This document shows positions 1 to 1,421 of a DNA stretch of 1,421 bases, piece by piece. The first letter of the stretch is position 1. Every line of letters starts with the position of its first letter. The notes below the pieces were generated by a model, which saw only the letters and a program-made list of their open reading frames with translations, was not told the DNA's origin and searched no databases. A program made the translations under genes and the position numbers. Source of the DNA: Naegleria gruberi (lineage: Eukaryota); NCBI GenBank assembly GCA_000004985.1, contig GG739427.1. One strand, written 5' to 3'.

Positions 1-35
1 TACTAACTAATTGCACTATAATTTTTGATAAAAAG

Positions 36-1421
36 ATGAACAACTTTATAACCAATATTTCTAAAATAGTACTACCTTGTAAAACTAAAGAAAATGAAAA
101 TGAATTACATAACCAAATTGAAAAATTAATTAATAGAGATATTGAATGTGAAGAAATTAAAAATATATTAATTAAATGTATTAATAGAATGATTCAAATA
201 GACTCTATGAAACGTATGAATTGTTATTATTATAAAAATATTATTTTAAATATAATCAAATATTTGAATGGTGAAATTAATGAAAATGAATTGAATATAA
301 ATTTAAATATATTAGAAAATGAAGATTGTGCTTATTCAGAATTTTCTAAATTTTCTTCACATTTTAATTTAGGAAATATTGAAAATGCTATTAATTTATA
401 TAATAATTTAATTAACAAGTATCCATGTACAGGTTTATATATAATGGGTGCACAATTATATATTCAATGTGGAGATTATCATAAATTTAAAGAATGTATT
501 AATTTAGCATATAATTTAGATAATAATTGTAAAGCTGTACATGTTTACAATGCAATTTATTATAAATCAATACATGATTATGAAAATTTAAATAATACGT
601 TAAATATATTAAATAATACAAATATTACATTTACAGAACCTACATTACATGTATTATTGTCATGGATTTTCTCTGATTTTAAAGTTTCTTATCCTAATTT
701 ACTATTCAATCAAACATTATATCCAAATAACAAATCAAACGAAAACAATATAAATTTAATATCAAATACAAATGATGACGAAGAAAAAGAAAAAAAATTA
801 AGAATTACAGTTCGTAATTACAAAAATAGAGCTTATTTATTTCAAAAAAATGTAAAAGGACGTTCTTTAACAGAAATTTTACAAATATGTAGAAAAAAGT
901 TTAACAATGACAAGATAGACACTCTATTGGATGATATTACTTATGAAATTGTTGTAAATGAAACAATGTTAATACATTTGAGAGAGTATACAGCAATAGA
1001 AAAAGAATTTATTGATCAATTTTTAAATGAAAATTTATCAATAATTAATAAGCCATTTCATCATTATCCAACAATTAATGCCTTAAAAACAAACATAAAA
1101 ATAGTGAGATGTAATAATGAATTGAAACTGAAAAAGTTAGTTGATATTCCTAATGATCAGGATATCAAAGATCCTAATATTAAAACTGTAGAAAAAGATT
1201 TTATTAATAGATGTGAAACAATTCAATCAATTAAATCTAATAATGTTATAGAATATTTAGAGTTTGGAATAGAGAGTAAAACAGTAGATAATATAATATA
1301 TTATATTATAATGCCAATAGCTATTTGTGATTTACGTACATATTGGTTTTCTAATTTTTTTATTTTTGATAGAACAATAGACAAGTTATTAAATTATTTT
1401 ATTCAAATTGCTAATGGAATT
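36..1421 (+). CDS. Partial CDS, 3'-truncated by the window and possibly also 5'-truncated. Hypothetical Asn/Ile/Lys-rich protein with TPR-like repeats and a putative ubiquitin-like beta-grasp segment. At least 462 aa are present in the window.
   Basis: Frame 3 has no TAA/TAG/TGA from nt 3 through nt 1421; I translated it codon by codon. The first ATG is at nt 36-38. No in-frame stop lies between nt 3 and nt 36, so the true start may be upstream of the window. Frames 1 and 2 carry frequent stops, for example TAA at nt 4-6. Sense-strand TTA/CTA/TCA triplets occur throughout, which makes long antisense ORFs unlikely. Codon usage is strongly A/T-ending and coherent across the ORF: AGA/CGT for Arg, TTA/TTG for Leu, GGT/GGA for Gly. 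TGG encodes Trp twice and no stop read-through is needed, so a Mycoplasma (TGA=Trp) or ciliate code is not required. Translation begins MNNFITNISKIVLPCKTKENENELHNQIEKLINRDIECEEIKNILIKC and continues to FDRTIDKLLNYFIQIANGI at the window edge. Confidence 0.85.
   Translation, partial: MNNFITNISKIVLPCKTKENENELHNQIEKLINRDIECEEIKNILIKCINRMIQIDSMKRMNCYYYKNIILNIIKYLNGEINENELNINLNILENEDCAYSEFSKFSSHFNLGNIENAINLYNNLINKYPCTGLYIMGAQLYIQCGDYHKFKECINLAYNLDNNCKAVHVYNAIYYKSIHDYENLNNTLNILNNTNITFTEPTLHVLLSWIFSDFKVSYPNLLFNQTLYPNNKSNENNINLISNTNDDEEKEKKLRITVRNYKNRAYLFQKNVKGRSLTEILQICRKKFNNDKIDTLLDDITYEIVVNETMLIHLREYTAIEKEFIDQFLNENLSIINKPFHHYPTINALKTNIKIVRCNNELKLKKLVDIPNDQDIKDPNIKTVEKDFINRCETIQSIKSNNVIEYLEFGIESKTVDNIIYYIIMPIAICDLRTYWFSNFFIFDRTIDKLLNYFIQIANGI
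324..632 (+). other. TPR-like helical repeat region within the CDS (aa ~97-199), with at least 2-3 repeats.
   Basis: aa 113-130, GNIENAINLYNNLINKYP, fits the second helix of a TPR ending in the canonical Pro (generic pattern G-Y-eA---Y-kAl-l-P). aa 131-164, CTGLYIMGAQLYIQCGDYHKFKECINLAYNLDNN, fits the 34-residue TPR pattern: L at position 4, M-G at 7-8, aromatic at 11/12, then G-D-Y..F/A...Y..L-D-NN mirroring the classic 'GDYeeAieyyekAlelDPnn'. aa 165-199, CKAVHVYNAIYYKSIHDYENLNNTLNILNNTNITF, is a weaker third repeat. This is a pattern match by eye, not a profile search. Confidence 0.5.
723..797 (+). repeat. Low-complexity Asn/Asp/Glu/Lys-rich linker (aa ~230-254, PNNKSNENNINLISNTNDDEEKEKK), encoded by A-rich DNA that includes an 8-nt poly-A run at nt 790-797.
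   Basis: It is read directly from the translation and lies between the TPR-like region and the beta-grasp-like segment. Homopolymer A runs sit at nt 784-788 (5 A) and nt 790-797 (8 A); another 7-A run is at nt 844-850. Confidence 0.7.
798..965 (+). other. Putative ubiquitin-like beta-grasp segment (Ras-binding/RA/PB1-like pattern), aa ~255-310.
   Basis: aa 255-310, LRITVRNYKNRAYLFQKNVKGRSLTEILQICRKKFNNDKIDTLLDDITYEIVVNE, shows alternating hydrophobic strands (LRITVR, then RAYLFQKNV), then Gly plus an amphipathic helix (GRSLTEILQICRKKF), then another strand (YEIVVNE). This beta1-beta2-alpha1-beta order is typical of ubiquitin-fold domains such as Raf-type RBD, RA and PB1. The G-x-S-L-x-x-x-L-x-x-x-x-K pattern resembles helix 1 of Raf RBD. 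No PB1 OPCA motif (D-x-D-G-D) is evident. Secondary-structure pattern only. Confidence 0.3.
1290..1421 (+). other. Hydrophobic, aromatic-rich C-terminal portion (aa ~419-462) that continues past the window; possibly a buried domain core or a membrane-associated segment.
   Basis: NIIYYIIMPIAICDLRTYWFSNFFIFDRTIDKLLNYFIQIANGI. Uninterrupted hydrophobic stretches are IIYYIIMPIAI (11 aa) and FSNFFIF; neither alone reaches the ~20 residues typical of a transmembrane helix. The ORF is still open at nt 1421. Confidence 0.25.

What the first reader, a model, noticed from the sequence alone, without database searches (positions are those of the whole stretch)
324..965. Domain architecture: TPR-like repeats, then a low-complexity linker, then a ubiquitin-like beta-grasp segment
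A TPR scaffold followed by a beta-grasp (RBD/RA/PB1-like) module suggests an adaptor or scaffold protein that links a protein-protein interaction platform to a small-GTPase- or PB1-type interaction; p67phox (TPR plus PB1) is one known example of this arrangement. I could not match it to a named family from sequence alone, so it may be a lineage-specific or uncharacterised protein.
Basis: inference. Interest (0 to 1): 0.5.

Follow-up and report, generated by a model that had tools for sequence, protein, structure and literature searches.

The report
TPR cassette inside a two-kinase protein
The flagged stretch is a real three-repeat TPR domain, an Asn-rich linker and a small unclassified alpha/beta module, and it sits between two protein-kinase domains of a Naegleria-type kinase rather than in a p67phox-like adaptor; this is an ordinary domain-shuffling variant, and the ubiquitin-like fold claim has no support.

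Summary
The window is one open reading frame with no stop from base 3 to base 1421, at about 20% GC. Amino acids (aa) are numbered from the ATG at base 36.

- **TPR:** confirmed. There are three 34-residue repeats (aa 99-200) plus a capping helix. Scanned alone, the region passes Pfam's TPR_8 cut-off. Ten shuffled or reversed controls gave no TPR hit.
- **Linker:** confirmed. Aa 217-253 are Asn-rich and strongly hydrophilic.
- **Missed context:** aa 15-94 are the conserved C-terminal tail of a kinase domain shared with Naegleria gruberi kinases. Aa 398-439 match the beta4-beta5-hinge of the second kinase of an N. gruberi tandem kinase. The flagged region is therefore a roughly 228-residue insertion between two kinase domains.
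- **Second kinase-like domain:** it has no glycine where the Gly-rich loop should be, so it may be a pseudokinase.

The best reading is a docking or regulatory cassette in a multi-domain kinase, which is a new variant of a known kind. The source organism is unknown, and interest is low.

The parts
3..317 (+). C-terminal end of kinase domain 1 (end of helix F to helix I, plus the conserved 'YL-x-GEI' extension); aa -11 to 94. The ORF probably continues upstream of the window.
   Evidence: All five hits of the exhaustive phmmer scan fall in aa 15-128 (E 6e-12 to 8e-5). Three are Naegleria gruberi kinases. In P0005, the Pfam Pkinase match (residues 429-738) covers most of the region that matches the window. 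A family HMM scores 53.6 bits, E 9.4e-19. MAFFT places the window's first residues 'LTNC' on the 'LTNC/LTDC/FTNC' that follows the 'FSLGCI' motif of the kinases.
330..431 (+). TPR repeat 1 (aa 99-132): AYSEFSKFSSHFNLGNIENAINLYNNLINKYPCT
   Evidence: Pfam TPR_6, TPR_14 and TPR_2 hits at aa 108-130. It lies in 34-residue register and aligns with the designed TPR 8ump and with SPAG1.
432..533 (+). TPR repeat 2 (aa 133-166): GLYIMGAQLYIQCGDYHKFKECINLAYNLDNNCK
   Evidence: Pfam TPR_8 at aa 135-164: 23.9 bits on the whole ORF and 28.0 bits, above the 25.7-bit cut-off, for the region scanned alone. None of 10 shuffled or reversed controls gave a TPR hit.
534..635 (+). TPR repeat 3 (aa 167-200), degenerate. 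Its helix B carries a 7-residue duplication, LNNTLNI/LNNTNIT.
   Evidence: It lies in register. PDB alignments to SPAG1, SGT1 and CTPR390 extend through aa 177-183. A 21-nt tandem repeat lies at bases 588-625.
636..683 (+). Probable capping (solvating) helix after the TPRs (aa 201-216): EPTLHVLLSWIFSDFK
   Evidence: AlphaFold predicts a helix at aa 201-214, at low confidence. The stretch is hydrophobic and amphipathic. This assignment is an inference.
684..794 (+). Asn-rich, then acidic/basic, low-complexity linker (aa 217-253)
   Evidence: 27% Asn, 73% polar, hydropathy -1.34, lowest sequence entropy locally. pLDDT is 23-33.
795..1046 (+). Alpha/beta module of unassigned fold (aa 254-337). 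Predicted strands at 254-260, 266-272, 302-307 and 311-316; helices at 278-291 and 320-337.
1047..1421 (+). N-lobe and start of the C-lobe of a second kinase-like domain (aa 338-462), cut off by the window end. The best-supported core is aa 398-439 (bases 1227-1352), covering beta4-beta5-hinge. There is no glycine at aa 338-400, where the Gly-rich loop is expected.
   Evidence: BLASTP against the second kinase of P0002 (residues 614-646) gives E 7e-4, and the match is collinear with the first match. phmmer scores 13.2 bits, reached by 0 of 868 scored shuffles (max 9.1). A 4-sequence kinase HMM scores 12.1 bits, reached by 0 of 926. The glycine count comes from reading the translation.

Best explanation
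The flagged segment is an internal, lineage-specific cassette of a large multi-domain protein kinase related to Naegleria gruberi kinases.

Order along the ORF:
1. The end of kinase domain 1.
2. A three-repeat TPR domain with a capping helix.
3. A flexible Asn-rich linker.
4. An alpha/beta module of about 85 residues whose fold cannot be assigned.
5. The N-lobe of a second kinase-like domain that lacks a Gly-rich loop and may be a pseudokinase.

Compared with the closest tandem-kinase relative (N. gruberi XP_002670766), the cassette is an insertion of about 228 residues between the two kinase domains.

Inferred mechanism: the TPR groove acts as a peptide-docking platform. It either recruits a substrate or partner to the kinase(s), or binds a segment of the same protein to hold the kinases in an inhibited state. 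The disordered linker gives it reach. The alpha/beta module packs next to the second kinase's N-lobe as a juxta-kinase regulatory element.

Shown: the ORF, the TPRs, the linker, the tail of kinase 1, and a short but non-random match to a second kinase. Inferred: everything about ligand and regulation, and the pseudokinase status.
For: - ORF: 0 stops in 473 codons, against 27-83 in the other frames.
- TPR: TPR_8 at 28.0 bits, above the 25.7-bit cut-off, for aa 90-230 alone. None of 10 composition-matched controls gave a TPR hit. All 8 top PDB sequence matches are TPR proteins.
- Linker composition.
- Kinase 1 tail: exhaustive phmmer hits only at aa 15-128, to N. gruberi kinases. Pfam Pkinase covers the matching region in those proteins. 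The family HMM scores 53.6 bits, E 9e-19. 'LTNC' aligns at the first residues of the window.
- Kinase 2: a collinear BLASTP match with E 7e-4, and 13.2 bits reached by 0 of 868 scored shuffles.
- Insertion size: from the GEI motif to the N(V/N)V-x-YLE motif is 322 residues in the window and 94 in P0002 (coordinates).
Against: - The second-kinase evidence rests on about 42 residues. Pfam Pkinase does not hit the window.
- An HMM built from the three kinase domains of the kinase-1 type (the first kinase of P0002, plus P0003 and P0005) gives no signal for the C-terminal part (-0.1 bits).
- The catalytic loop and the DFG motif lie beyond the window, so neither activity nor pseudokinase status can be read.
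- The ATG at base 36 could be a genuine start. The window would then open with a remnant of a kinase tail.
- No orthologue covers the cassette, so conservation cannot be assessed.
- Both structure models are low-confidence (pLDDT 36.7 and 46.2).
- The TPR ligand is unknown. The Hsp70/Hsp90 'carboxylate clamp' residues are mostly absent (about 2 of 5 in the SPAG1 alignment).
Confidence: 0.6

Rival explanations
1. One reading: the module at aa 254-337 is a ubiquitin-like beta-grasp domain (PB1, RA or RBD type). The TPR platform would then be coupled to a PB1-type or small-GTPase-type interaction. In the kinase context this would resemble PB1-kinases (MEKK2/3, aPKC), Raf (RBD-kinase) or DCLK (DCX-kinase).
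For: The predicted order of secondary structure, beta-beta-alpha-beta-beta-alpha, is what the first two-thirds of a beta-grasp looks like. 'LSIINK' (aa 334-339) could supply a fifth strand. Beta-grasp domains N-terminal to kinase domains are common; this last point is from general knowledge and was not tested here.
Against: - Pfam gave no UBQ, PB1, RA, RBD or DCX hit even at E 10. Only noise appeared: PC4 at 0.02 and FAIM1 at 0.08.
- PDB sequence search gave nothing relevant.
- In the model, aa 320-337 form a helix, not a fifth strand.
- No OPCA acidic motif typical of type I PB1 domains is visible in the sequence.
- All the structural evidence is low-confidence, so this model is unsupported rather than refuted.
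Confidence: 0.15
2. A stand-alone scaffold protein that starts at the ATG at base 36. The kinase-like flanks would be degenerate, non-functional remnants, and the protein would act only as a TPR adaptor.
For: An ATG lies at base 36. No Gly-rich loop is present in the downstream kinase-like part. Pfam Pkinase does not hit the window.
Against: The frame is already open from base 3. Its first four residues, LTNC, align with the end of helix F of the related kinases. The kinase tail is well conserved, at 40-48% identity to the Naegleria proteins, which argues for constraint. The window ends inside the ORF, so the downstream domain continues.
Confidence: 0.12
3. The alpha/beta module is not a separate domain. 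It is an N-terminal extension of the second kinase domain, with extra strands and a helix packing on the N-lobe, as in kinases that carry N-terminal helices or strands.
For: The module directly abuts the predicted N-lobe, with only about 5-10 residues between helix 320-337 and the first predicted N-lobe strand. The relative P0002 has no comparable module.
Against: About 85 residues, with their own hydrophobic pattern and four strands plus two helices, are enough for an autonomous domain. There is no direct evidence either way.
Confidence: 0.12
4. The TPR signal is a composition artefact of an Asn/Ile/Leu/Tyr-rich, AT-biased sequence.
For: On the full ORF, the TPR_8 score is below Pfam's cut-off (23.9 against 25.7 bits). 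The PDB hits are individually non-significant. AlphaFold confidence is low in the region.
Against: None of 10 composition-matched controls hit any TPR family. Four different TPR models hit the same two repeats. The three repeats lie in an exact 34-residue register with the canonical small and large residue positions (LGN-x-E-x-A-x-x-x-Y-x-x-x-I-x-x-x-P and CGDY-x-x-x-x-E-x-I-x-x-A-x-x-L-D).
Confidence: 0.05

Closest known systems
Naegleria gruberi tandem kinase XP_002670766 (P0002, 861 aa) and the DUF4116-repeat kinases XP_002679510 and XP_002673831
   Same: The kinase C-terminal tail and its extension ('MIQRD-x-x-KR-x-x-C-Y-x-Y-K ... YL-x-GEI') are shared, at 39-48% identity over about 75 residues. 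Like P0002, the window then carries a second kinase-like domain.
   Different: In P0002 the two kinases are about 94 residues apart between the reference motifs, and in the window about 322. The TPR, linker and alpha/beta cassette has no counterpart in these proteins or anywhere else in 1.84 billion representative proteins. The window is 20% GC, while N. gruberi is 33% (PMC6892926). No DUF4116 repeats fall inside the window.
Three-repeat TPR domains with a capping helix (Hop/STIP1 TPR1, SGT1, SPAG1/RPAP3, PP5 type)
   Same: Three consecutive 34-residue TPRs are followed by a helix. These proteins are the best PDB sequence matches.
   Different: In the SPAG1 alignment, only the two Lys positions of the five 'two-carboxylate clamp' residues are matched. 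The Asn, Asn and Arg positions are Ser, Ile or Met, and Tyr or Asn (the clamp positions are from general knowledge). Binding of an Hsp70/Hsp90 EEVD tail is therefore not expected.
ASK1/MAP3K5 central regulatory region (TPR, then PH domain, then kinase); also Mps1/Bub1 (TPR-kinase), plant BSKs and mycobacterial PknG (kinase-TPR)
   Same: A TPR array plus a small beta-containing domain sits directly N-terminal to a kinase domain and serves as a docking or regulatory unit. This is a functional analogy from general knowledge.
   Different: No sequence relationship was detected. The module here is shorter than a PH domain and is predicted to hold two helices. Here the cassette lies between two kinase domains.
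   Same: It has an N-terminal TPR array followed, after linkers, by a small alpha/beta interaction module.
   Different: No PB1 signal was found and no SH3 domains are present. The cassette is embedded in a kinase, and no homology was detected.

Membership tests
TPR repeat (Pfam clan TPR; TPR_8 PF13181) | A profile match at or above Pfam's gathering score | tested here: met
   28.0 bits against a 25.7-bit cut-off for aa 90-230 scanned alone. On the whole 462-residue ORF the score is 23.9 bits, just below the cut-off. None of 10 shuffled or reversed controls hit.
TPR repeat (Pfam clan TPR; TPR_8 PF13181) | Three or more tandem 34-residue helix-turn-helix units in register, with the consensus small and large residues (positions 8, 20, 27, 32) | tested here: met
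   Repeats at aa 99-132, 133-166 and 167-200 lie in exact 34-residue register. Repeats 1 and 2 fit the consensus well, and repeat 3 is degenerate.
TPR repeat (Pfam clan TPR; TPR_8 PF13181) | A right-handed superhelix of antiparallel helix pairs in three dimensions | tested here: inconclusive
   A single-sequence AlphaFold model places helices at 99-107, 115-128, 133-137, 148-165, 182-194 and 201-214, close to the expected positions. However, pLDDT is 35-51 there.
Hsp70/Hsp90 EEVD-binding 'carboxylate clamp' TPR domains | Five conserved clamp residues (Lys, Asn, Asn, Lys, Arg) on helices A1, A2 and A3 | tested here: not met
   In the HMMER alignment to SPAG1 (7bev), only the two Lys positions are matched. 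The Asn, Asn and Arg positions are not. The clamp positions are taken from general knowledge.
Ubiquitin-like beta-grasp domains (UBQ, PB1, RA, RBD, DCX) | A profile match to any family of the superfamily | tested here: not met
   Pfam at E up to 10 gave only PC4 (0.02) and FAIM1 (0.079). PDB phmmer gave no relevant hit. The 5.8-billion-protein search gave 0 hits at E 10.
Ubiquitin-like beta-grasp domains (UBQ, PB1, RA, RBD, DCX) | A beta(2)-alpha-beta(2-3) fold with a mixed five-stranded sheet wrapped around the helix | tested here: inconclusive
Eukaryotic protein kinase domain (Pkinase PF00069): upstream domain | A conserved C-lobe end (subdomains X-XI) homologous to bona fide kinases | tested here: met
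   53.6 bits, E 9.4e-19 against an HMM of four N. gruberi kinase domains. The matching region of P0005 lies largely inside its Pfam Pkinase match.
Eukaryotic protein kinase domain (Pkinase PF00069): downstream domain | N-lobe beta4-beta5 and hinge similarity | tested here: met
   13.2 bits against the second kinase of P0002, reached by 0 of 868 scored shuffles. BLASTP gives E 7e-4. The match is short (42 residues), and the Pfam Pkinase model itself does not hit.
Eukaryotic protein kinase domain (Pkinase PF00069): downstream domain | A Gly-rich loop GxGxxG in beta1-beta2 | tested here: not met
   No glycine at all occurs in aa 338-400 (translation). MAFFT puts a gap opposite the GxGxxG of the relatives.
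Eukaryotic protein kinase domain (Pkinase PF00069): downstream domain | The catalytic loop HRD-x-x-x-x-N and the DFG motif | not testable with these tools
   The window ends at the start of the C-lobe ('...LLNYFIQIANGI'), before these motifs. The source contig was not found in any collection.
p67phox-type adaptor (TPR plus SH3 plus PB1) | PB1 and SH3 domains after the TPRs, in a protein without a catalytic domain | tested here: not met
   No PB1 or SH3 hit was found. The flanks are kinase-derived.

The most novel reading that the evidence does not exclude
The roughly 85-residue alpha/beta module (aa 254-337) is a previously undescribed juxta-kinase regulatory domain. Together with the TPRs, it would form a lineage-specific cassette that converts a Naegleria-type tandem kinase into a kinase-pseudokinase scaffold with its own docking platform. 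The carrier would be an unsequenced, very AT-rich heterolobosean, or a giant virus of such hosts that captured the gene.
Probability: 0.15. Interest if true: 0.35.

Novelty: new variant of a known kind. Interest (0 to 1): 0.2.

Why it matters
The result has modest importance. It corrects the annotation from 'TPR plus ubiquitin-like adaptor' to 'TPR-containing cassette inside a tandem kinase'. It also shows that the cassette has no detectable relative among about 1.8 billion representative proteins. If the full gene were recovered, it would add one more example of protist kinases acquiring docking modules between a kinase and a probable pseudokinase. It might also reveal a new small regulatory domain. 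It does not bear on any long-standing open question.

Tried and rejected
- **Finding the source or orthologues.** Exact 40-mer scans of the viral, genome and metagenome contig collections all came back empty. An exact protein look-up found nothing. Degenerate-peptide scans with the ORF or with alignment A2 in the viral, metagenome and genome collections found no relative. blastn against phages found nothing.
- **Homology for the cassette.** A word-indexed search of 5.8 billion proteins with the whole ORF gave nothing. The same search with aa 250-359 gave nothing even at E 10. A profile search with the kinase-tail alignment returned only two short metagenome fragments. These lie on contigs of 2.4 kb (about 32% GC) and 0.6 kb, which add no context.
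- **Other profile libraries.** PHROGs, NCBIfam and PADLOC gave no hits.
- **Pre-kinase region as the origin of the cassette.** I tested whether the cassette is homologous to the conserved pre-kinase region of the Naegleria proteins. hhalign gave probability 0.4%, so I rejected this.
- **Kinase HMM.** An HMM of the three kinase domains of the kinase-1 type gave no signal on the C-terminal part. The support for the second kinase comes only from the second kinase of P0002.
- **RNA or repeat explanations.** Rfam gave only snoRNA hits with E about 0.9, well under their thresholds. Tandem repeats are short AT-rich units inside the coding sequence.
- **Literature.** The paper on a Naegleria giant virus does not mention kinases or TPRs. 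A search for DUF4116 found nothing relevant.
Full report
**What the window is.** The 1421 bases are about 20% GC throughout. They hold a single long reading frame on the + strand. Frame 3 has no stop in 473 codons, from base 3 to base 1421, while the other five frames carry 27-83 stops. GC at third codon positions is 10.8%. Because the frame runs off both ends, the mechanical ORF list does not show it. I number residues from the ATG at base 36 (translation). The finding (bases 324-965) is then aa 97-310.

- On the whole ORF, Pfam gives TPR_8 at aa 135-164 (E 3.9e-5, 23.9 bits, just under the 25.7-bit cut-off) and TPR_6 at aa 108-130.
- Scanning aa 90-230 alone raises TPR_8 to 28.0 bits, above the cut-off (E 1.9e-6, two stretches). 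It also adds TPR_6, TPR_14 and TPR_2.
- As a control for the Asn/Ile/Leu/Tyr-rich composition, I scanned nine shuffles and the reversed sequence of the same 141 residues. None hit any TPR family.
- The eight best PDB sequence matches to the region are all TPR proteins: two designed TPRs, SPAG1 twice, Hop/STIP1 twice, SGT1 and a protein named only 'tetratricopeptide repeat protein'. Each is individually weak, with E 0.013-0.3.
- Laid out in 34-residue register, aa 99-132 and 133-166 are near-canonical repeats ('LGNIENAINLYNNLINKYP' and 'CGDYHKFKECINLAYNLDNN'). Aa 167-200 is a degenerate third repeat, and 'EPTLHVLLSWIFSDFK' is a plausible capping helix.
- This three-repeat-plus-cap layout resembles the chaperone-binding TPR domains. 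However, in the SPAG1 alignment only the two lysines of the five carboxylate-clamp positions are matched. I therefore do not expect EEVD binding.

**The linker holds.** Aa 217-253 are 27% Asn (40% in the core) and 73% polar, with hydropathy -1.34. The neighbouring segments are at about -0.2 to -0.35. AlphaFold confidence is lowest here.

**The beta-grasp part is not supported.**
- Scanned alone, the segment hits nothing relevant in Pfam at E up to 10; only PC4 and FAIM1 noise appear.
- It hits nothing relevant among PDB sequences.
- It hits nothing at all in the 5.8-billion-protein database, even at E 10.
- With no homologues, AlphaFold could only be run on single sequences. The full ORF gave pLDDT 36.7 and aa 246-350 gave 46.2.
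- The fragment model predicts strands at aa 254-260, 266-272, 302-307 and 311-316, and helices at 278-291 and 320-337. The full-length run agrees except for the second strand.
- That pattern is compatible with the first part of a beta-grasp, but it lacks the fifth strand.
- Foldseek against the PDB and against viral models gave nothing below E 0.05.
- My conclusion is a small alpha/beta module of unassigned fold. The beta-grasp idea is unsupported rather than disproved.

- An exhaustive phmmer scan of 1.84 billion representative proteins found five hits, all confined to aa 15-128.
- Three are Naegleria gruberi kinases: XP_002670766, XP_002679510 and XP_002673831. Two are short metagenome fragments.
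- Two of the Naegleria proteins carry DUF4116 repeats plus a Pkinase domain. The third, P0002, has two kinase domains.
- The matched region is the C-terminal end of their kinase domain plus a conserved extension ending in 'YL-x-GEI'.
- A small HMM of these kinase domains scores the window at 53.6 bits, E 9e-19.
- MAFFT aligns the very first residues of the window, 'LTNC', with the 'LTNC/LTDC/FTNC' that follows the 'FSLGCI' motif of the kinases. The ORF therefore very probably continues upstream, and the ATG at base 36 is probably internal.
- Downstream, BLASTP against P0002 gives a second, collinear match. Window 'NVIEYLEFGIESKTVDNIIYYIIMPIAICDLRTY' aligns with 'NVVRYLEYDVVYQSLDNFYFVIMELAEQNLKQY' (the beta4-beta5-hinge region of the second kinase), with E 7e-4.
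- In a shuffle test the real C-terminal part scores 13.2 bits by phmmer and 12.1 bits against the 4-sequence HMM. No scored shuffle reached those values (0 of 868 and 0 of 926; maxima 9.1 and 7.5).
- The support is short, at 42 residues, and it has limits. Pfam Pkinase does not hit the window. An HMM of only the three kinase-1-type domains gives nothing.
- No glycine occurs in aa 338-400, where a Gly-rich loop should be. The second domain may therefore be a pseudokinase. The catalytic motifs lie beyond the window.

**Anatomy and most likely function.** The order is kinase-1 tail (bases 3-317), three TPRs plus cap (330-683), linker (684-794), alpha/beta module (795-1046), and kinase-2 N-lobe (1047-1421).
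- Between the 'GEI' motif and the 'N-V-x-YLE' motif there are 322 residues in the window but 94 in P0002. The flagged region is thus an insertion of about 228 residues between two kinase domains.
- I tested whether the cassette derives from the conserved pre-kinase region of the Naegleria proteins. It does not (hhalign probability 0.4%).
- By analogy with other TPR-bearing kinases (ASK1, Mps1/Bub1, PknG, plant BSKs; general knowledge, not tested here), the TPR groove most likely docks a peptide. That peptide would belong either to a partner or substrate, or to the protein itself as an autoinhibitory contact.
- The linker would give the TPR domain reach, and the alpha/beta module would act as a juxta-kinase regulatory element. 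These mechanistic steps are inference.

**Source.** No collection held the sequence or a close relative. The only relatives are from Naegleria, at 33% GC, whereas the window is 20% GC. Willaertia magna, the sister genus, has 24.8% GC (PMC6892926). A very AT-rich heterolobosean, or a virus of such hosts, is a reasonable guess, but it remains untested.

**Verdict.** The finding is a new domain-architecture variant of a known kind, namely multi-domain or tandem protein kinases with a TPR docking module. Interest is low.

Noticed in passing
window 1-38: The reading frame is already open at base 3. Its first residues, 'LTNC', align with the end of helix F of the related Naegleria kinases. The ATG at base 36 is therefore probably internal, and the gene extends upstream of the window.
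   Followed up: partly
window 588-625: An imperfect 21-nt tandem duplication (TTAAATAATAC...) encodes 'LNNTLNI/LNNTNIT' inside helix B of the third TPR. It looks like slippage-type expansion within coding sequence, and it may explain why repeat 3 is degenerate.
   Followed up: no
window 1047-1235 (aa 338-400): This stretch contains no glycine, although the Gly-rich ATP-binding loop of the second kinase-like domain is expected here. MAFFT places a gap opposite the GxGxxG of the relatives. The domain may be a pseudokinase.
   Followed up: partly
window 1-1421: Composition is extreme: 20% GC overall and 10.8% GC at third codon positions. Asn and Ile together make up 29% of residues. The only relatives come from Naegleria gruberi (33% GC) and from a metagenome contig of about 32% GC. 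The source is therefore a different, much more AT-rich genome.
   Followed up: partly
window 1335-1421 (aa 434-462): 'WFSNFFIFDRTIDKLLNYFIQIA' resembles 'GFYRDGFISKDKIIEIIEIFIKVL' of the first (DUF4116-associated) kinase type more than it resembles the second kinase of P0002. This appears only in a MAFFT alignment and is not supported by the 3-sequence HMM.
   Followed up: partly
window 843-988: Two weak C/D-box snoRNA matches (snR50 and snoR53Y; E about 0.9; 21-23 bits against gathering scores of 43-45) lie inside the coding region. They are almost certainly chance in AT-rich sequence.
   Followed up: no
L001 1259-1639 and L002 91-591: Two short metagenome contigs (ENA ERZ929261 and ERZ12289978) encode only the kinase-tail motif followed by a coiled-coil-like, Gln/Glu-rich C-terminus. 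These are probably fragments of Naegleria-like DUF4116 kinases from environmental samples.
   Followed up: no
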